A stretch of DNA of 63,837 bases, counting the filler, from Phoronis australis (lineage: Eukaryota; Animalia; Phoronida), in the NCBI GenBank assembly GCA_002633005.1. It is 8 parts of 8 records of this genome, joined end to end, with 100 filler letters (N's around TTAATTAATTAA, not from the genome) between each part and the next. Parts side by side here need not be neighbours in the genome. Positions count along the whole stretch, not along the records: positions 24,703 to 31,897 come from NMRA01002056.1; 7 more parts are not named here. One strand, given 5' to 3'. Made by a program: the position numbers and the translations under genes. The notes beneath the pieces are model-generated. The model was not told the origin of the DNA, made no database searches, and worked only from the letters and a program-made list of their open reading frames with translations. Below are positions 517-40,110 of this stretch, piece by piece; within the stretch, counting starts at the first letter, position 1, and every line of letters starts with the position of its first letter.

Positions 517-3025
517 TGAATATTGATCACCCTTTGGTTCTGTTGGTAATGGCTCACATATGTCTGCAGCCTTTCTCGTACAAATGGGTTGAGTTCGTAC
601 GGCCTCAAAGTCGATGGAAGTTCCCCAAGTGGAAAATCGAATTCATTGTCTGATTCTTCAAATACTTGAGTGTGAGGCCCATATCCACTCTCCTCTTCGT
701 CTGCATAATATTTGTCCAGTTTTCGCTCAAAATCGTCCTTGGTATTCTGATCGCCCGAGTTACGCCATTGCAACTGATTGTCAAGTGACTAAACACCCAT
801 TAGATCATTTGGCAAGAAACTTGGAAATGAGTAAGTTTTCTTCAAAATTCGCGACCATTTGCCATGATTGTATTTTATGGTATTCATTTCATATTAGCTA
901 ACTGAAACCTCAAAAACTATGAAGAAAATGCATTGTGGGAACTCCTTAATATACAACAAAGTCATAGTATTTATTATGATACATTTCTTATTGTATCATA
1001 CAAAGTATTGCATCAACAGGTATAACAAAAACATTATTATTATGCCTTAAAACAAAGCAGCACTAGGTAATATAAAATTGAAATGCAAATGTAAACGTGT
1101 CTAAAAACAAGCAGATAAGGAAAGACAAGTCAATGCAGGTTTGTTCATAACACCTGTCACAACTTGAATCTGTTCTCAAAAAGTTAAAGCTAAATTTCAC
1201 ACCGTCCCGTTTCGCTGTCTAATAAACGAAAAATTGATTTGGCACTTTTACCCACACAATTGGTCTGGAAGTATTCCTTACCATGATGGGATTCTGTTTC
1301 TACTTCCTACAAGAACTTCGAAACCATCCAAGAATAAAAGAAATACTTCTAAGTTTCTAGGGGCTGTACGACACTAAAATTGTGGATTTGAAAACGGCAC
1401 ATTGCCTGTGACTTGAGTTGCTGACTCATTTGTCAACAATCTACGACCTGGAGAGCGAGATGTTTTCAAACCCCACAATACTTCAGTCAAAAATTCAATA
1501 TTGACAGCTAAATAGCAGCGAAATGTAGCTTTAATGGAAATGGCCAAAACTGAACTGGCACCTTGTTACAACTGAGTGAGAAACTCGCAGACTACAGCAT
1601 TCAAAATATTATTTGGCCAAAATATTCCAGTTACAACATTACACACCTCATTTCATGAAGGATTGGCTTGGTGGACATTCTGAGAACTAGTTGGGCGTGA
1701 CAGCCTTCAGATTGAAGAACATCAATAAAAAAGTAAAAATACAATGAAATATCTAAAGACAACAGTACAAAACACCCACCACCAACAATGAGTTACAGTA
1801 CATGACAATAATTATTCGCTACACAACCAAAATCTGCCCAAGAGACACTTGCCAGGAACAGATTATTCAAGACCCGTCTTGTTTAATAGTTAACTCGAGT
1901 GAACATGTGGTAATGCATTCTGTAGACCTACGGCGAAATGCAGGATCATGTAAAACTTCACGAGATGTCATCATGCAGCGCAAGCGAAAAATGCGATTAC
2001 AATAAATTAACATTTATTATTGCAAATTTCCTGTGTTTATAGAACATGCCCCTCAGTACTCTTCAAGGATCAGGCTAGCCAGCCTCAAGTGCGTACCTAC
2101 CCTCTTATTTGATCAAACTGATGAATGACTGAAGAAAATACCAACCCGGAAGACCGTTTCCAGTCTTGTATAGAAGTTATCATTATGACCCATGTGACCA
2201 TCGATTACGTGGGGTCATTGAGGTTCATCTTGAGGCAAATCTTTCTTACGTAATTACAGAGACTCTGATGAAGAATTTCGCTAGCATTTGGCAGTCGTGA
2301 CTCGACCATCGTGACTGGGAATTGTAGATCGTTTTGTTTGATTATTGTTGGCGTGTACTGCAAATTCTGACTCACAAATCAATACCAAGACTTCCCAAGA
2401 TAACTTCATTGAAAAGTTCAACATACAAAAACATTCCCAAATAACAACTGTGCTTTTCTCAAACAGCACCACTCCCTTCTAGAAAATTGCAAAATGCATG
2501 CAGTGGAATAATCTCTAAAACTTTCTAAACATACCCAATGCAGGAATCATAATAGAAAAACGTGGGTATGAGTGAATTGACCACACGGCCGCTAGACTGG
2601 GTCTATTTAGAGGGACCTATAGGCCTTTTTTGCTTCCAATTTTAATGGGTGCGTTGATCCGAGCTAAGCAACCACACAGCTCCAATGATGTGGGACATGA
2701 TACTAAAATTATCCCTGCTAAAGCACCTGCACCCCTATGAAGATACCAACACACAACTAAGATATAACATAATAGCCGAGTATTTGGTTACAAAACGATT
2801 TAACACAGCGTGAACAGCACAACAAACTCATAGTAAGGTACACTTCAAAAAAAGTTGAGAAAAGGAAACAATACAGTTGAATTTTTCATTTGTATTGAAT
2901 CTATTTTAAATAATGACAAAAATACAACTGTGCACTATGCAGCAGTTACATTTAATTTTATTCCAGCACCATTACACAACACACATCGCCCCCTACTGGC
3001 CTTTGGCTCCATAACATTTTGAGGT

Positions 3026-4498
3026 TCATACTACAGCAGGCTCATTACCACTCACTGAGTCGCCTAGCTCATCTTCATCAGCATCAGCATTTAATATGTC
3101 ATTGGGGTAAGCTATTGACAATGACGCCAGCCTAGTAAAATCAGGCGCAATGCTTTCCCAATCAACAAATTCTTTAGTTTCGACATCAAATGCACTTAAA
3201 TGCCGGGACTCTGTCGAGCCCCCCACGAGATAAATAGTATTTCCCACTGAAGCCACATCTCTGAGCAAGTGGCCATGAAGGTCAGGTGTAGGTGTCAGAA
3301 GTGACCACTGCTCAGTCTTCAAGTCGTAGACTTCATTTTCATTGCACTCGACCATACCATAACCGCCATCATTACCAACTGTATACCCACCGAATACAAA
3401 CACGTTGTCACCGTGGGTAATCATCGCATGACCTTGTCTAGGTACAATCATTTTTTTGCATACGACCCACACCCCCGTTTCTTTCAGCAGTTCGTAGGTA
3501 TGATCATCTGGGATAGAGAGATTGGGATTTTCTGCAATTCCCCCAGAAATGATCAGGTTGCCCCCACCTACAGTACCGGCGTGACTAAACGTCGGTTGTT
3601 GGAGTGGCGTCGTGTAGGTCCACTCGTTTGTCTGAGGATTAAACACCTCCACAGTGCCCAGAACATGCTCCACGTCATTCTCATCATGGTTGACGCCACC
3701 GACTGCGAACAACAAAGTGTCCGAAGCGCAGAAGACAAAATTACACCGCGGTTCCAGCATGGCCGGTGCATTGTGCCACATTTGGGACCGCTGATCATAG
3801 CGGTACACCGCATTGATACTATGGTACATTCTATTGTAACCGCCGGCAACAAACAGGAAGTTGCCAAACGTTGTCACAGCGCAATGTTCCAGAAGGCATT
3901 CCAAGTCCATGGTGTCAAATGCTTCGTTGATGAATTTGCCCTGCTTCAGTTGAGGGTCTTTGTACTGAACCCAGTCTATGCCATCCGTGATGGACATAAG
4001 TGCTACCACATCTTGTGAACCTCTTAACTTCACCTCATCTGACAATATCAGACACTGCTTGAAAGGATTCTCCAAGTAATCCATTGCTTTCTCGACCTGC
4101 CTCTTCACTCCAGGTAGATTTTTGATTTCATCAGGTATGCTGTTCAACTCCTCCACTTCAAGAAGAGGAAATCGTATGAAGCTCAATAATGTTTCTGCAT
4201 GGGCTTTCCTCTCCTGCAAGTCGTGTAAAAGCCAGTCGATCACCGCATGGAGAATGAGACCCTCGGGAGCCTCAACGTAATAATCGTCGCCCAACAGCTG
4301 CGAGAATAACTCTAGTGACATGGAATGGAATCGCTGGTTTTCCGCGAGTGATATGAAGTTATCGCCGATGAACCTGTAGATGTCATATCTCAAGTCGCCA
4401 AGTGCAAAGTGTTCAGCAAGCTCGAGAACAGAGTCGAAGTTCTCAATGGAGGTGTGACGAATTAGGAACAGGCAACAGGCATTAACCAACCATTCTAC
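3026..4498 (-). CDS. Kelch-like gene coding exon 3 (BACK + kelch propeller, to stop)
   Basis: Acceptor tttcag|GTAGAATGG (VEWLVNACC...); ORF 3026-4489 contains the kelch repeats FVAGG, FAVGG, IISGG, FVFGG and YLVGG. Confidence 0.95.
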   Translation of the reverse strand, partial: VEWLVNACCLFLIRHTSIENFDSVLELAEHFALGDLRYDIYRFIGDNFISLAENQRFHSMSLELFSQLLGDDYYVEAPEGLILHAVIDWLLHDLQERKAHAETLLSFIRFPLLEVEELNSIPDEIKNLPGVKRQVEKAMDYLENPFKQCLILSDEVKLRGSQDVVALMSITDGIDWVQYKDPQLKQGKFINEAFDTMDLECLLEHCAVTTFGNFLFVAGGYNRMYHSINAVYRYDQRSQMWHNAPAMLEPRCNFVFCASDTLLFAVGGVNHDENDVEHVLGTVEVFNPQTNEWTYTTPLQQPTFSHAGTVGGGNLIISGGIAENPNLSIPDDHTYELLKETGVWVVCKKMIVPRQGHAMITHGDNVFVFGGYTVGNDGGYGMVECNENEVYDLKTEQWSLLTPTPDLHGHLLRDVASVGNTIYLVGGSTESRHLSAFDVETKEFVDWESIAPDFTRLASLSIAYPNDILNADADEDELGDSVSGNEPAVV

Positions 4499-5368
4499 CT
4501 GAAACCCAATAGAAAAGAATGATTGATTGGTCTCTTATAAGTTACCTGAAGGACAAATTAGGTACTTATAATCATTTCAAGTCTCGGGTTAAAACAGGTA
4601 ACTTGCAGGTACATAACAACTAAGTAAAATACCGTCCACACACAGTTTACCCTAACACAACTTGCACTAGTGCAACTTACCTCACTTTTAAGTGAAGCGT
4701 GCACACACACATATCCGAGGGTAAGGCAAAGTTGTCGCTCTCTGCATGACAACGTACACCGAATGTGAATACAGCGCGCAAGAGAAAACTCATCTGTATC
4801 TAACCACATCTGATAATTACTTCTGCCCTAGTGCACTAGTTTCAACAGCGTCCACACAGCCCTCAAATCTAGCAACAACTCGTTCCAGAAGTAACTTTTT
4901 CTAGGGAAAGTCTGTGTGTGGACGGCACTTAAATGTTTTCTTGCCATATTGATGCACTGGATTTAACAACATTTTCATGTACTACAGTTCCATTAAAGAA
5001 GTCCACAGTTTCAGCCCACCTCATGGTACAGGGTACATCAAAAATAATCTGACGGCACACTGGGTTTATCAGATGTATGCCGTTAACGATTTGTTTTCAA
5101 TGAAAGTCTGTATTTAGCCAAATATCTACACAACTATAGTAAAGGATATTTTCTGAAAATAAAAAGAGTAAATAAAATTTGATTTTTGACTAATAATACC
5201 AAACTGCCAATTACTATTAATTGGGTCACGTGACCAACTTTTTTGGTAAAATTAAGCAAAAAGAAACCAAAGTTAGTTAGCAAAGTAACGGTATCATTGA
5301 AACAAGAGTACTACTGCATTGATATGCATCGCATACAGCGCAGATACAAGGGATGATCATTACATTAA

Positions 5369-24602: not shown

Positions 24603-24702
24603 NNNNNNNNNNNNNNNNNNNNNNNNNNNNNNNNNNNNNNNNNNNNTTAATTAATTAANNNNNNNNNNNNNNNNNNNNNNNNNNNNNNNNNNNNNNNNNN
24701 NN
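24603..24702. other. Artificial contig spacer 44N-TTAATTAATTAA-44N (also at 31898, 35941, 41534, 44862, 56094, 62690)
   Basis: Seven identical 100-nt spacers whose core gives stop codons in all six frames. Confidence 0.97.
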
Positions 24703-25120
24703 CNCTGGCACTCGCCACTGGCACTGCACTCAGCTTGGGCCTGAACCGAGGCTTTTACAACAAAGGTATCACCGAAAACAATACCATTTTTAGGATTTAG
24801 AGTTTATATACACAATCTAAAAATGTCATCCCTTTAATAAAATGTAGAACAATGGATTACCTGCTCTTCCAGACATTTTTTCAAGGGACAATGTTAATGA
24901 ATCAACACCACATGAAAGTTACGACCTCAAGCGGGAAATTCACTTGGTATTGAATTCCATTTGATAAATCAATTTACGTAAATACACTATCTGGCCAACA
25001 ACAAATGAACTCGTCAAATGTCAGTGTGATTAAAAAATGATAACTTTTTTAGCAATATTAACAGAATTTCGAGTTGATACGCTTAGATATATGATGTAGT
25101 TCGAAACTGTTTCTTCAATT

Positions 25121-25136
25121 GTTGCCTACTAGCAAC
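25121..25136. promoter_or_regulatory. RFX X-box-like motif upstream of CFAP20DC
   Basis: GTTGCC-tact-AGCAAC, ~660 bp upstream of the ATG. Both half-sites fit the RFX consensus; the spacer is one base longer than the usual 0-3. Confidence 0.4.
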
Positions 25137-25797
25137 AAATATGGTGGACGAAGCCGAATTAGGAGCTGTCACTCTGTGTTCTATTGGGTGAAGATTTTGT
25201 GGATAGAACGCGCTAAATACACGGCTGCATTATGTGATTATATGGAATTAACGTGGCACGAACATTAGTGAAGATGTTTACTGGATTATTTTGACACAGT
25301 ATAGTTAAACCACAAATCACGACGTTCTTGTGAGTTGTGCAGATTGGCAAATTCTGTCAAAATCGAGGACAAGTTGACTGTAGTTGACAAGTCCAGATAA
25401 ATGCCGCATGAGTAAGCTTTAGGCTGGACTAATTTGTCACCAAGATACCCAGGTACAGACGCTATGCGCTAGTTGCTTGTGGTGCTTATTGCTAAACCTG
25501 AGGAGCAAGGAGCAAGGATCGCTTGCAATTCAGCCGTCATACCTTGAAGAAGTCGAAGACTGTGGAGATCGAATCCTGAGAAAGTCTTTGAATTCATTAT
25601 TTACTGACTTTAACCATTTATTCATTTTAATGAATGAATTTGCAGTTTTTAATTACTGCTTACCTGTTGCACTGATGTGACAGAACTCCATCAGAAAATG
25701 GACACGTGCAGTGTTGTTGCAATAACTGTCGTGAGGAAAAGTTCATTTTAAAATTTGGTTTGTGTTGGTTTCTCAGGACTCGCTCATCGTCATCATC

Positions 25798-25818
25798 ATG
25801 TTCAAGAATGATTTCCAG
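25798..25818 (+). CDS. CFAP20DC: CFAP20DC coding exon 1 (MFKNDFQ)
   Basis: Acceptor at 25775-25776; ATG TTC AAG AAT GAT TTC CAG|gtataa; human begins MFKNEYQ. Confidence 0.85.
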
Positions 25819-25891
25819 GTATAAATGTGGAAACACCTTCAATTGTTTAAGATTCACTTAAACTCTCGTTTTCAGACAATGTTTACTATTA

Positions 25892-26428
25892 TGTAGTAAT
25901 AGCCGAGATTACCCGACCCGGGGATCGAACCAGCGACCCCCATAAAACCGGCAAGCGTGCTAACCATTCAGATAATAGGCAATTGCCCGTTAGCGAGTAG
26001 CTAACAGAGGCTCATATAATTCACCGGAAGCACATCTACAACATTCCCCCCTTTCCTACGGAACGGGCACGCGACAGGAAGGTGAACACCAGGATGTCTC
26101 GCATACAGGTCATCAACGTCCCTTGGCACCTTTACCACCACAACACAGGTGAACACAAGGTCGTCTCTCATACAGGTCCTTGACTCCTGGAACCTTCCAC
26201 GCGCACTGTCCCGAAGTCCGTGGGTACTAGTTGGCAGTGCTTCATCGGTAGATCATCCGTTTGCCTACTACGCCATTTGTAGTAATAGCCGAGATTACCT
26301 GACCCGGGGATCGAACCCGTGACCCCCATAAAACCGGCAAGCGTGCTAACCATTCAGCTAATAGGCAATTGCCGTTAGCGAGTAGCTAACAGAGGCTCAT
26401 ATAATTCACCGGAAGCACATCTACAACA
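25892..26428 (-). mobile_element. TRIM (miniature LTR retrotransposon) with tRNA-derived LTRs, Helenus/TRIMp3-like
   Basis: TG...CA direct repeats at 26278-26428 and 25892-26043 (4 substitutions, 1 indel). PBS TGGCGTAGTAGGCA, PPT GGAAAGGGGGGAA, A/B boxes inside each LTR, flanks ATTA/AGTA. Confidence 0.9.
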
Positions 26429-27349
26429 AGTATAACTCATAACTCAGGTGGAGAATATCACATATTAGTTATCCAAACATCAAAAATCATGCAATTTAAC
26501 CAATTTTGTCGTTTGTTTCTTTTCAATGTGTGCTGAAAAATAGAGAAACTGTTTTCAGTTTTTGTCAGAATACTTGTTATAGGATCCTGGATGAAGTAAA
26601 CTACTATTCTCTAGTGACTAATGGAACCTCTGGTCACTGACTACCTGCTAGTACTTCAGTCTGGGACCTCTGAATTCCATGTAACCAGCACTTTTCGAAA
26701 ATTGGTCTGTGCATGGATATCTGGAAAACTACCTTTCAAAGGAAAAATGTCAAACGAAACCTAACATACGAGTAGTTGTATTTTCGGAAAGGGGACGTAT
26801 TTCTGGAAGTTGTATGGATGCAGCTTTTGTTATACAAATATTAGTTGTGAAATGTTTTTAATGAACGTTCTTCTTGTTGTAAGAAGTTAAGTCATCCATA
26901 TTTCTTTCGCATTCAATAAGCGCACCGCATTATTAAAGCTGTCCTTCATGCAATACAAAGAAGTGGCCTAATATCTGATTAAATGAGTGAAATTGCTATC
27001 CCAAAATATAATGTCTTAACAAAGTAAACAGAATTTTACACTCAAAACATATCACATATGGAATTTAGAACAGTCCGTCAGATTTTTAAAACATGTTTAA
27101 CAGTTACCGAAAATACACGCATGGACATAATTTTGAAAATTTTTACAAAAATACGCCCATGGGCGTACTTTTGGGTGGACCTATCGTAGTGCTGTGCTGT
27201 AGTATTAGCAGTCAGCTAAGGAAAGATGCTGCTGTTTCGAATGTAAAAGAAAATTTTTGAATCATATATTTTATTCATACTTGTTAGTTTAAATTACAGC
27301 TTGTTAAAAGTTATACGTGATTTGCTCTAGCGATTTATTGCCTTTACAG

Positions 27350-27430
27350 GGTGGTCCGTACTTTGAGATATTGTCAGCTCAAGGCAAAGACGCAGCGAGT
27401 TACTGGAAGACAACAGGGGGTGTCAAGAAG
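27350..27430 (+). CDS. CFAP20DC: CFAP20DC coding exon 2
   Basis: tttacag|GGT GGT CCG...AAG AAG|gtgagc; GGPYFEILSAQGKDAASYWKTTGGVKK. Confidence 0.92.
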
Positions 27431-37722: not shown

Positions 37723-38082
37723 AAGTAAACCACAAGATGGTATAACACTGCAAAAATCTTACAGTCAATTGTTTTGTTGTATAAATATGTCGCTCAAAGA
37801 AACTGGCAACTGATAGCAACATTGCAGAAATATGTCACTCAAAATACGATGAGTACAACTGCACGATTTTAAGCTCAAGCAAACCACAAGTCCCAAAAAC
37901 ACAACATTTGTTCAACAGTCTCAAGTACGGCTTTAATGCTCACTCAAAGTTTCTAATTCCACAGTGAAATAAAATCATGGAAAAAAAAAACGTGCCTTCA
38001 TTGAAACAGACTGAATAGACGGAATCAAGGAAACTTCTTCTATCTCAACTTTCAACCCGCCAATGAACAGACCGTAACTTAC

Positions 38083-38763
38083 CATCCATACATCGGGAAC
38101 AATCCCGTCCAATTCTGTAGGGAAGACATGCGCACTGGCCAGTGTTGGAGTTACATTTTGTATAAACTTTGGGTGACTGTGTATCTGTAATTCCTCCTAA
38201 GGAACAATTGCACAGTTGGCATCCTATTGGATTGGATGCCGACAGATTCCATGAGTTGCTACTGCACTGATCACAGGCTTTACCCTCTACTCGTACAGGT
38301 CTTTTGGGGTCTAATGACATCTTGCAGGTGCACTGGCCAGTGGTCTTGTTACAGTTGGACGAGCCGTTCACTGTCCCTCTTACGTCGCATCCGCACGACA
38401 GACAACCATCCTGCGTCGAGCCGCCAAAATTGTAGAACCCGTCAAGGCAGACATCGCACTTATCTCCGCCCACATTTCGTTTGCACACACACTGACCGGT
38501 TGTTTTGTTACACGGATAACCTGGAAGAGTGCCTTCAGGATTGCAGTCACATGATAGGCACTTTTTGTCAAAATCGTAGAAGTCATCTGCGCACTCATCA
38601 CAGTGTTGGCCAATGACGTTCGGTATGCATGCGCAACTACCATCGTCACGGTTACAGATGGCGCTGGTTGAACCTTTGGCGTTGCACGCACACTCAGTGC
38701 AACCTTGCGGGTTGGCAATGTCCAGGTTGTAAAACCCAAACTTGCATTGGGTGCATTTACCAA
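38083..38763 (-). CDS. USH2A: Usherin laminin-EGF exon (equivalent of human exon 13), 681 nt, phase 1-1
   Basis: tttcag|TT GGT AAA TGC ... ATG GAT G|gtaagt; GKCTQCKFGFYNLDIANPQGCTECACN...GTLPGYPCNKTTGQCVCKRNV...GTVNGSSNCNKTTGQC...CLPYRIGRDCSRCMDG is colinear with the recalled human USH2A LE repeats. Confidence 0.85.
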
Positions 38764-40110
38764 CTGAAATAGAAAATCAAAACAAATGTCACAGTCAATT
38801 TTGTTTCAACAGGATGGTCCACAGGACGTCACAAAGCCTCACCCCGTGAGAGATTGTCGTGATGCCATCCTAGTTCAGAGTTGTTGGTGACTGAGAGAAA
38901 GAATTTGGAAGCTCATAAAGTGGTCACTACAATCATGGATGGTGACGGCCCTTCACCAAACTTAGTATTTTCTGAGACAGGTGAATAAACTTAAACTGGA
39001 GGCATTATAGCAATACTTGGGATTTGTCTCCAACATTTTACAGTAATTGTTCATCAAATTTGATAGATAATCTGACACAAAAATTAATGAAGTCACAAGG
39101 GGCATAGGAGCAGTTGAACTCATCCAAAAATCAATGTCAGTCACGCTCCGCTTGTAAAAACACGTCTCTCAATTTTGGTGCGGAACTCAAACCAAAATTC
39201 TAAACTTGCTACTATGGGGCACACAACATGACAGAGTTTTAGAAAACTTGCGAGTTGATATCCTTCCTTTATATTAAGAACTCTGTTTCGTAAAGATTCA
39301 TTCCAGGACTTGGCAGATATCAAAGAAAACTAACAAATAAAATTGACACCAGGTGACAGAGCAGTGGGGAAATTTGTTCAAAAGTCTCCATGTTTACAGG
39401 AACACACCTGCCAAATTTCACGCAAAGTATCTGTTAGGGAGCAAGGAGATGCAGCAGCGGATGCTGGTCTGAGATGACTAAAATATGCATTCCACACATG
39501 GATTTGGATGCATAAAAAACAACTGTACCGTGAAGCTATAAGAATCTGACAAGAAAGGGTGTATGCCGACAAAACAGAACCATTATGCAACAATGGCTGA
39601 TAAGAAGCTTAAGAATTTCAGCGAATTTCCACGGACAACTAAAATGGTCAGCTAAAGACAATTTACTGTGCTTATATAATATTAAGTAGTTGTTTAGTTT
39701 GAAATAAATTTCATCTCATTATTAAGATTTTGATGGACTTGCTGCATATATCCATTAGAAGGAAATTACCAATCATATATTTGCTCTCTTAATTCCAACA
39801 CACCTAGAAAACATCACGTTTTTAACAACAACTTCACAGACACATACAAAAAGTCAACGAATCGATAAAGTATAAAATGTTGCAAGCTGACAACTGCTGA
39901 TAGAAGCAAGCGACGTAATTTGACAAACTACTCCATATACATGCGATACAGGATACTGTTGAAAAAGAGAAACAGGTTTTGTGTAAAATTAATGATACTG
40001 ACAAAAGCAGACGACAAACCCGTTAGCAGCCAATCGAAGCTTGGGAACTTAAAATCTTGGCTGCAAGGAATTAAAGCTACATAAATATTTTACACTTAAC
40101 CCACACTCAC

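What the first reader, a model, noticed from the sequence alone, without database searches (positions are those of the whole stretch)
25892..26428. Intact miniature LTR retroelement whose LTRs contain a tRNA-like Pol III promoter (Helenus/TRIMp3-like)
Seen, on the minus strand: a 151-bp TG...CA LTR (26428-26278), 2 nt, PBS TGGCGTAGTAGGCA (26275-26262), a non-coding interior (234 bp in total), PPT GGAAAGGGGGGAA and a 152-bp second LTR (26043-25892). The LTRs differ by 4 substitutions and 1 indel. Each LTR holds a ~70-nt tRNA-like module (26366-26297) with A-box TAGCTGAATGG, D-stem GCT/AGC and T-arm CGGG-TTCGATC-CCCG. Flanks ATTA/AGTA fit a 4-bp TSD with one mismatch. Established (from recall): the PBS complements the 3' end of tRNA-Ser (TGCCGACTACGCCA) at 13/14 positions, and TRIMs with small-RNA-derived LTRs are known (Cassandra with 5S; Helenus with tRNA-like LTRs and 4-bp TSDs in animals). 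Inference: a young, possibly uncatalogued family transcribed by Pol III but mobilised by an LTR-retrotransposon partner, inserted antisense 73 bp after the first coding exon of CFAP20DC.
Basis: partly seen in the sequence, partly recalled or inferred. Interest (0 to 1): 0.82.

Follow-up and report, generated by a model that had tools for sequence, protein, structure and literature searches.

The report
tRNA-promoter mini-retrotransposon with self-pairing ends
This is a real, high-copy, gene-less 537-base jumping element of the known Helenus type, present on only one of two alleles in an animal intron; each end repeat carries a short self-complementary sequence, shared in form with mollusc and fish relatives, that is predicted to pair the two ends of its RNA.

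Summary
Two 151/152-bp TG...CA LTRs (4 substitutions, 1 indel) flank a primer site, a 234-bp interior and a polypurine tract. DNA runs show a dispersed family with sharp ends, roughly thousands of LTRs and hundreds of interiors. The same sample holds an allele without the element. The single primer-site mismatch is private to this copy; the other copies match tRNA-Ser at 14/14. A and B boxes are present; it is not called as a tRNA. The 4-bp TSD, Pol III transcription and the helper element were not shown. It is a new Helenus family, a type this scan has met before on other DNA. New here: just before the A box lie a hairpin and a perfect 10-nt palindrome. By eye, 54 of 76 published non-insect animal Helenus LTRs have a self-complementary core at that position, with varying sequence and G-U tolerance. 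The Helenus paper's main text does not mention it. It likely pairs RNA ends or dimers and suggests one old lineage across molluscs, nemerteans and vertebrates.

The parts
26278..26428 (-). 5' LTR, 151 nt, TG...CA
   Evidence: loose ends of other copies pile up at 26428/26429 with unrelated flanks
25892..26043 (-). 3' LTR, 152 nt, 4 substitutions and 1 indel from the 5' LTR
   Evidence: loose ends pile up at 25892 and 26043
26262..26275 (-). primer-binding site for tRNA-Ser; 13/14 in this copy, 14/14 in nearly all other copies
   Evidence: (variant at 26266)
26044..26277 (-). non-coding interior, 234 nt, no run of three or more T on the element strand
26044..26057 (-). polypurine tract abutting the 3' LTR
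26147..26178 (-). interior 32-bp direct repeat, copy 1 (87.5% identical to copy 2)
26080..26111 (-). interior 32-bp direct repeat, copy 2
26374..26390 (-). 6-bp stem-loop upstream of the palindrome (3' LTR copy 26005-25989)
   Evidence: 2 of 6 pairs changed on both sides against the oyster copies
26364..26373 (-). perfect 10-nt palindrome GGCAATTGCC, core of a roughly 25-nt self-complementary stretch that reaches into the A box
   Evidence: (2 of 5 pairs changed on both sides)
25978..25987 (-). the same palindrome in the 3' LTR; predicted partner of the 5' copy
26350..26360 (-). Pol III A box (the 3' LTR copy 25974-25964 has a private change at 25972)
26308..26317 (-). Pol III B box in the T-arm (3' LTR copy 25931-25922)
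26330..26333 (-). T4 run in the anticodon region, the only one per LTR (3' copy 25947-25944); candidate leaky terminator
   Evidence: a T4 lies at the aligned position in L001 and L002
25888..25891 (+). left flank, candidate 4-bp TSD copy
   Evidence: 3/4 match, chance 6%
26429..26432 (+). right flank, candidate 4-bp TSD copy
25798..25818 (+). host coding exon 1 (7 codons; CFAP20DC by recall)
27350..27430 (+). host coding exon 2; the element lies antisense in the 1531-nt intron 25819-27349
   Evidence: splice joint GT..AG in 4 reads of X7 and 2 of X8

Best explanation
It is a non-coding, high-copy LTR retrotransposon in miniature of the Helenus type that is likely transcribed by RNA polymerase III from the tRNA-like A and B boxes in its 5' LTR, likely copied by a helper Gypsy element using tRNA-Ser as primer, and predicted to pair its two RNA ends, or two RNA copies, through a palindrome that both LTRs carry. 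Shown: LTR-PBS-interior-PPT-LTR anatomy, dispersed copies with sharp ends, a large excess of LTR over interior, an element-free allele in the same sample, A and B boxes, and a palindrome whose self-complementarity is kept while its sequence changes. Inferred cycle: (1) Pol III starts at about the first G of the palindrome, 13 nt before the A box. (2) Some transcripts read through the one T4 in the 5' LTR, cross the T-run-free interior, and stop in the 3' LTR after the second palindrome, most simply at the second T4. That gives an RNA of about 430 nt with a repeat of about 44 nt at both ends. (3) The two palindromes pair antiparallel, which brings the ends together for minus-strand transfer or joins two RNAs for packaging, as the 5' palindromes of Ty1 and Ty3 do. 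(4) A Gypsy particle reverse-transcribes and integrates it; LTR-LTR recombination then leaves solo LTRs.
For: Anatomy. Copy number and sharp ends: in X1, LTR bins reach depth 20,361 and 14,010 and interior bins 2,291-3,618, against about 7-12 in most single-copy flank bins; 40 contigs leave at 25892, 20 at 26043 and 15 at 26428, with flank agreement 0.37-0.42. Polymorphism: joint 25892-26452 in X1 (depth 7.1) and X2 (26.3), beside an LTR-flank junction contig of depth 23.2 in X2. PBS: 2568.5 of 2666.6 depth shows the other letter at 26266, and all of it at 97% likeness, which gives the 14-nt antisense end of human tRNA-Ser printed in PMC3299991. Promoter. Homology: local alignment to L001 and L002 scores 88 and 87, exceeded by 0 of 500 shuffles each; the part upstream of the A box alone scores 36 (6 of 500) and 46 (0 of 500). 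Covariation on 3 sequences: 33 of 33 cells paired, 4 of 11 pairs changed on both sides, 7 of 500 shuffles as high. By eye on Data S1 of PMC10886601: 54 of 76 non-insect animal LTRs have an 8-12-nt self-complementary core just before the A box; 24 have an internal G-T pair and 1 an A-C mismatch. Folding: in 15 of 15 trial transcripts that include the whole 5' palindrome it pairs with the 3' one at probability 0.97-1.0 (structure). Gypsy dependence and 4-bp TSDs of animal Helenus: PMC10886601 section 3.6. Precedent for palindromic dimer signals: PMC6844567 abstract, PMC11381356 passages.
Against: No transcript start or end was seen: RNA reads lie on both strands, carry the letters of other loci, and show no pile-up. 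The T4 in the 5' LTR must be read through, which is assumed. If transcription starts 3-7 nt further in, the end pairing mostly collapses (probability 0.00-0.25 in 4 of 6 such trials, 0.70 and 0.94 in the other two). Pairing of two copies of a palindrome is close to automatic in a fold, and overall stability is modest (z -1.72 for the predicted RNA; -1.29 for one LTR). The 13-nt core alone is not significant against its own shuffles (about 6%); the 25-nt stretch is (0.4%), but other 25-mers in the T-arm score lower energies. The covariation test has only 3 sequences from 2 families, and L001 and L002 were fetched with a pattern that imposes the hairpin (not the central 6 letters of the core). 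The 54-of-76 tally is by eye and many families are close kin. 22 of 76 LTRs lack the module. TSD unproven. No helper found.
Confidence: 0.7

Rival explanations
1. Same class of element, but its RNA would come from Pol II read-through and be cut to unit length at the tRNA-like fold by RNase P or RNase Z, so the A and B boxes would be kept as tRNA shape and not as a promoter.
For: A displaced 7-bp acceptor-like pairing is possible between 26369-26363 and 26300-26294 (read's output). The T4 in the 5' LTR is awkward for Pol III read-through. Most of the published LTRs that lack the palindrome keep an intact acceptor stem followed by a T-run (by eye; Figure S1). RNA reads cover both strands, as read-through would give.
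Against: ARAGORN and Rfam call no tRNA; no cloverleaf is the predicted fold; conservation against L001 and L002 is concentrated at the boxes and the upstream module.
Confidence: 0.15
2. The element is a Pol III-driven Helenus, but the palindrome would act locally, as a DNA promoter element or as a small hairpin that hides the A box or sets the start or stop site, and not as an end-to-end or dimer contact.
For: The 25-nt stretch also folds on itself (-8.7 kcal/mol) and does so in the single-LTR fold. Some published cores look like NF-kB sites (recalled consensus). The module sits where Pol III initiation factors would bind.
Against: The central four letters, which a hairpin would leave free, are themselves self-complementary in many different sequences (by eye). 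Internal G-T outnumbers A-C 24 to 1, which a double-stranded DNA site would not favour. The sequence itself is not conserved (4 double changes in 11 pairs).
Confidence: 0.25
3. An ordinary tRNA-derived SINE duplicated in tandem, or a chance arrangement.
For: The repeat has a tRNA-like head, and the TSD match is weak.
Against: TG...CA ends are sharp across dozens of contigs; the interior is itself multi-copy; the PBS is a full tRNA-Ser match; a PPT abuts the second repeat; there is no A-rich tail.
Confidence: 0.02

Closest known systems
Helenus (TRIMp3), Kojima 2024, PMC10886601; read main text parts 1-5 of 6, figure legends and tables, supplement parts 1, 5, 6, 7, 9, 10, 11 of 11, and two term searches over the whole supplement
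   Same: Two LTRs with a tRNA-like A/B-box region, PBS for a tRNA 3' end, PPT, no coding, 537 bp (published range 311-1263), LTR excess over interior, flanks compatible with a 4-bp TSD. The LTR aligns with oyster Helenus-1_CVi-like copies L001 and L002.
   Different: No listed family has LTR 151/152 with interior 234, and its PBS and interior motifs are absent from Data S1. Host not identified. The hairpin-plus-palindrome module is not mentioned in the main text (0 hits for palindrom, hairpin, dimer).
Ser-primed mytilid families Helenus-2_MyGa, Helenus-2_MoPh, Helenus-2_LimFor (Data S1 part 6, Figure S2C)
   Same: By eye only: Ser primer, long interior (226-268 bp against 234), LTR of 141-156 bp, the same hairpin-palindrome-T-A-box order, short shared interior motifs, a similar PPT, and the first 9 LTR letters identical to Helenus-2_MyGa.
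   Different: Different PBS letters, different palindrome sequence, no long stretch of identity; not tested by alignment.
Cassandra (5S rRNA TRIM of plants; PMC7215508 passages; summary in PMC10886601) and Ajax
   Same: Pol III promoter inside the LTR. Cassandra RNA is reported to have short terminal repeats and is predicted to fold as a super-hairpin with both LTRs paired, like the fold. By eye, both Ajax LTRs also show hairpin, palindrome (one with a central mismatch), T-run and an A-box-like motif.
   Different: 5S-derived, not tRNA-derived; plants or nemerteans; Ajax has 5-bp TSDs.
Ty1 PAL1/PAL2 and Ty3 PAL6 dimerisation palindromes (PMC6844567 abstract; PMC11381356 passages)
   Same: Short self-complementary sequences near the 5' end of an LTR retrotransposon RNA that join two RNAs.
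   Different: Those are 6-nt or paired palindromes in Pol II RNAs of autonomous elements and are experimentally shown. Here the core is 10 nt within a 25-nt stretch, lies in the LTR so that it would be at both RNA ends, and is untested.

Membership tests
Helenus (TRIMp3) | Two direct terminal repeats with TG...CA ends, element under about 1.3 kb, no protein coding | tested here: met
   sharp ends across many copies
Helenus (TRIMp3) | tRNA-like sequence in the LTR with conserved A and B boxes, usually not a functional tRNA | tested here: met
   consensus match, 0 in 200 shuffles; no tRNA call
Helenus (TRIMp3) | PBS complementary to the 3' end of a host tRNA just inside the 5' LTR | tested here: met
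   tested against human tRNA-Ser, the host's own tRNA was not available
Helenus (TRIMp3) | PPT abutting the 3' LTR | tested here: met
Helenus (TRIMp3) | Dispersed multi-copy family with solo LTRs | tested here: met
   depth ratio of about 10:1 for LTR to interior, and loose ends at both LTR termini with unrelated flanks; solo LTRs are inferred from the ratio, none was read end to end
Animal Helenus | 4-bp target site duplication | tested here: inconclusive
   3/4 match, chance 6%; the empty allele agrees up to 25892 but its next 78 letters are not shown
TRIMp3 | Transcription by RNA polymerase III from the LTR (validated only for Cassandra according to PMC10886601) | not testable with these tools
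   RNA-seq reads show both strands and no start pile-up
Animal Helenus | Mobilisation by a Gypsy element sharing the PBS | tested here: inconclusive
   no genome held; 8 of 8 viral-contig hits had no LTR repeat or RT motif; no RT motif in the window
LTR retrozyme | Self-cleaving ribozyme (hammerhead or twister) in each LTR | tested here: not met
   no Rfam match at E up to 1; no hammerhead, twister, pistol or HDV core motif by simple patterns
tRNA-derived SINE (SINE2) | tRNA head at the 5' end, LINE-derived or simple-repeat tail, no PBS or PPT | tested here: not met
   the head lies about 60 nt inside a TG...CA repeat; PBS and PPT present; no tail

The most novel reading that the evidence does not exclude
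Most Helenus families of bivalves, nemerteans and vertebrates, the Ajax elements and this family descend from one ancient bilaterian mini-retrotransposon whose LTR places a sequence-variable palindrome at both ends of a Pol III transcript. The palindrome clips the RNA ends together, or joins two RNAs, and so lets a very short terminal repeat serve strand transfer and packaging in a helper Gypsy particle without any sequence shared with the helper.
Probability: 0.4. Interest if true: 0.7.

Novelty: new member of a known kind. Interest (0 to 1): 0.5.

Why it matters
As a family record it is modest: one more Helenus, here high-copy and still polymorphic in its host. The added value is the module before the A box. 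Kojima 2024 leaves open how TRIMp3 elements are recognised and copied by helpers with unrelated LTRs, and suggests separate origins for mollusc and fish Helenus. A self-complementary core kept at one position across both groups, with changing sequence, gives a concrete and cheaply testable cis-element, predicts where the transcript starts, and points to a single old lineage or to horizontal spread. The polymorphic insertion also offers a clean site for reading the target duplication and any effect on host splicing.

Tried and rejected
No host genome is held, so copy number comes from summed contig depth, which the tool warns is no true copy number. ARAGORN and Rfam found nothing. A family-specific 27-nt pattern found 0 metagenome contigs. 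The general hairpin pattern found 2 metagenome loci and 0 viral ones. A helper search by LTR end plus PBS gave 8 viral loci, 8 of 8 without LTR repeat or RT motif, taken as chance. Pfam did not name exon 2. No RNA holder was listed as indexed; the raw RNA runs were laid instead. A TATA-like hexamer 30 nt before the palindrome was dropped because about half of the laid depth differs there (26018). The idea that the upstream hairpin forms only in the 3' LTR and triggers termination was not supported at equilibrium (probability 0.00-0.02 in the 15 full-palindrome trials). A ribozyme in the LTR was rejected. A first four-sequence alignment put the palindrome out of register and was replaced by an ungapped 29-column one of three sequences, leaving out the 3' LTR with its extra base. 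Repbase and Dfam could not be searched, so 'uncatalogued' rests on the 2024 supplement alone; parts 2-4 and 8 of it (mostly fungal and wasp families) were term-searched but not read, and its figures were not visible.

Full report
Observation. On the minus strand the window holds a 151-nt repeat (26428-26278) and a 152-nt repeat (26043-25892) that differ by 4 substitutions and 1 indel, both running TG...CA, around a 234-nt interior. The interior opens with a 2-nt spacer and a primer-binding site (26275-26262) and ends in a purine tract that abuts the second repeat. It also holds a 32-bp direct repeat at 87.5% identity. No other copy lies in the window. An A box and B box at tRNA-gene spacing match the type-2 Pol III consensus; the pattern occurs once in the window and never in 200 shuffles. 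ARAGORN and Rfam call nothing, so the module is tRNA-like and not a tRNA gene.

It is a dispersed, high-copy family. No genome is held, so I laid sequencing runs of the same organism. In DNA run X1 most single-copy flank bins have depth about 7-12, the interior 2,291-3,618 and the two main LTR bins 20,361 and 14,010. The tool warns that summed depth is no copy number. Taken roughly, it means thousands of LTRs and hundreds of interiors, about 10:1, as expected when solo LTRs dominate. Contigs leave the element exactly at its ends: 40 at 25892, 20 at 26043 and 15 at 26428, with flank agreement of only 0.37-0.42. This rules out a local tandem duplication.

The insertion is polymorphic. Both DNA runs laid come from one sample, which may be the assembly's source. 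Each holds a contig that skips 25893-26451 (depth 7.1 in X1, 26.3 in X2). X2 also holds a contig across the LTR-flank junction at depth 23.2. The simplest reading is a heterozygous insertion. The empty allele carries 78 letters in place of the skipped 559 and the tool does not print them, so the target duplication could not be read. The flanks match at 3 of 4 positions, which random 4-mers from the neighbourhood do 6% of the time. The TSD is therefore compatible but unproven. The LTRs are 2.7% apart and this copy differs from nearly all others at 6 or more sites, so it is not brand new.

The primer is tRNA-Ser. There 2568.5 of 2666.6 depth in X1 shows another letter, and all depth does at 97% likeness in X1 and X2. 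With that letter the site equals the first 14 letters of the antisense template of human tRNA-Ser printed in PMC3299991 (one passage read). Likewise the A-box change in the 3' LTR (25972) is private: 16,297.5 of 16,568.1 depth shows the intact letter.

Host context. RNA reads splice 25818 to 27350 across a GT..AG intron of 1531 nt (4 reads in X7, 2 in X8), so the element lies antisense in intron 1, 73 bp after the donor. The name CFAP20DC is recalled; Pfam did not recognise the 27-aa exon 2. The host is an animal. The best named relatives of a kelch protein in the window are from Octopus, Mya and Capitella at 33-40% identity, which hints at a spiralian but does not place it. RNA reads on the element lie on both strands, carry the letters of other copies and show no pile-up of starts or ends. 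They say nothing about Pol III.

Comparison with Helenus. Kojima 2024 (PMC10886601) defines Helenus as TRIMs with tRNA-like LTRs, PBS and PPT, with 4-bp TSDs and probable Gypsy helpers in animals. No family in Table S1 has these LTR and interior lengths, and the PBS, A-box and interior motifs of this element were absent from the supplement. The nearest in build, by eye, are three Ser-primed mytilid families with 226-268-bp interiors. Two metagenome loci carrying oyster Helenus-1_CVi-like LTRs align collinearly with the window LTR: scores 88 and 87 against shuffled means of 56 and 50, with 0 of 500 shuffles as high. The part upstream of the A box alone scores 36 (6 of 500) and 46 (0 of 500). 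Those loci were fetched with a pattern that imposes a hairpin, so the upstream score is not fully independent. Repbase and Dfam were not available. Earlier notes of this scan report Helenus-type elements on other DNA, none like this sequence. Two of them led me to look for a ribozyme, and none was found.

Directly upstream of the A box each LTR has a 6-bp stem-loop (26390-26374) and then a perfect 10-nt palindrome, GGCAATTGCC (26373-26364). Perfect 10-mer palindromes make up 93 of 62,158 positions in the window, 551 if G-T is allowed. The palindrome is the core of a 25-nt stretch that is self-complementary into the A box (self-duplex -28.6 kcal/mol; 0.4% of shuffles as low; the 13-nt core alone 6%). 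L001 and L002 have the same arrangement with different letters: on an ungapped 29-column alignment of the three, 33 of 33 cells pair and 4 of 11 pairs change on both sides (7 of 500 shuffles as high; three sequences from two families is a small test). I then read the animal LTRs in Data S1 by eye. Of 76 non-insect animal LTRs, 54 have an 8-12-nt self-complementary core followed by a short T-run and the A box, nearly always after a hairpin: 18 of 18 vertebrate, 33 of 51 bivalve, 3 of 3 nemertean, 0 of 3 Lingula, 0 of 1 ctenophore. Eleven have an odd length with one central unpaired base and one is only 8 nt. The sequences differ widely. Twenty-four have an internal G-T pair and one an A-C mismatch. 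Most of the other 22 keep an intact acceptor stem instead. Wasp LTRs (parts 7 and 9 only) show at most a shorter version and were not counted. Both Ajax LTRs show the module too. The tally was not computed and many families are close relatives. The paper's main text has no hit for palindrom, hairpin or dimer. Searches, passages of PMC13570524, PMC12859917 and PMC6934838 and the scan's notes showed no description of it. Figures were not visible and most subscription papers are not in the library.

Mechanism. A G-T over A-C bias means the constraint acts on the sense single strand, most likely RNA. A self-complementary centre means pairing between two copies and not only a hairpin. Pol III would start about 10-20 nt before the A box (established knowledge of tRNA genes), which is the start of the palindrome. 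The only T4 runs are one per LTR in the anticodon region and the interior has no run of three T. I infer partial read-through of the first T4 and termination at the second, giving about 430 nt with the palindrome at both ends. That RNA folds as a rod with its ends paired (z -1.72), as predicted for Cassandra (PMC7215508 passages). The two palindromes pair at probability 0.97-1.0 in 15 of 15 trials that include the whole 5' copy, but mostly fail if the start lies 3-7 nt further in. Palindromes near the 5' end drive dimerisation of Ty1 and Ty3 RNA (PMC6844567 abstract; PMC11381356 passages). End pairing would help strand transfer with a short repeat; dimerisation would help packaging by the helper. 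None of this is shown experimentally, and no helper was found.

Verdict. The TSD, Pol III use and helper remain open. The conserved self-pairing module, and what it implies for the mechanism and ancestry of animal Helenus, is the part worth following. Interest 0.5.

Noticed in passing
window 25798-25818 and 27350-27430 (+): First two coding exons of a host gene, joined by RNA reads (GT..AG, 1531-nt intron). Plus-strand RNA reads also cover about 25100-25800, a possible long 5' UTR. The name CFAP20DC is from recall.
   Followed up: partly
window 26429-26451: The element-free allele has 78 other letters in place of 25893-26451, so about 55 extra bases lie next to the insertion site. The filled allele has a 7-bp tandem repeat here, which may mark a deletion.
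   Followed up: partly
window 26930-27180: A second, lower-copy repeat in the same intron (depth 40-180 in X1, rearranged joints).
   Followed up: no
window 25892-26047, tables 5 and 8: Some X1 contigs hold two LTR-like pieces with unknown sequence between them, possibly tandem arrays or a longer element that shares the LTR.
   Followed up: no
window 25894 and 26043, RNA runs X6-X8: Many LTR reads share one flanking sequence on each side, pointing to one or two LTR copies carried in an expressed host transcript elsewhere.
   Followed up: no
PMC10886601 Data S1, Ajax-1_LiLo and Ajax-1_NGe: By eye, both Ajax LTRs have hairpin, palindrome, T-run and a tRNA-type A-box-like motif ahead of the 5S part, so Ajax may derive from a Helenus of this type.
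   Followed up: no
window 3026-4534 (-) and 38045-38776 (-): A 502-codon BACK/Kelch open frame (best hits 33-40%) and a laminin-EGF exon most like usherin.
   Followed up: partly
window 24603-24702 and seven similar gaps: Assembly gaps with a fixed 12-letter spacer between runs of N; they create the top false repeat families.
   Followed up: no
L001 21-182 and L002 506-640: Metagenome contigs carrying oyster Helenus-1_CVi-like LTRs; one core has a G-T pair where the other has G-C.
   Followed up: yes
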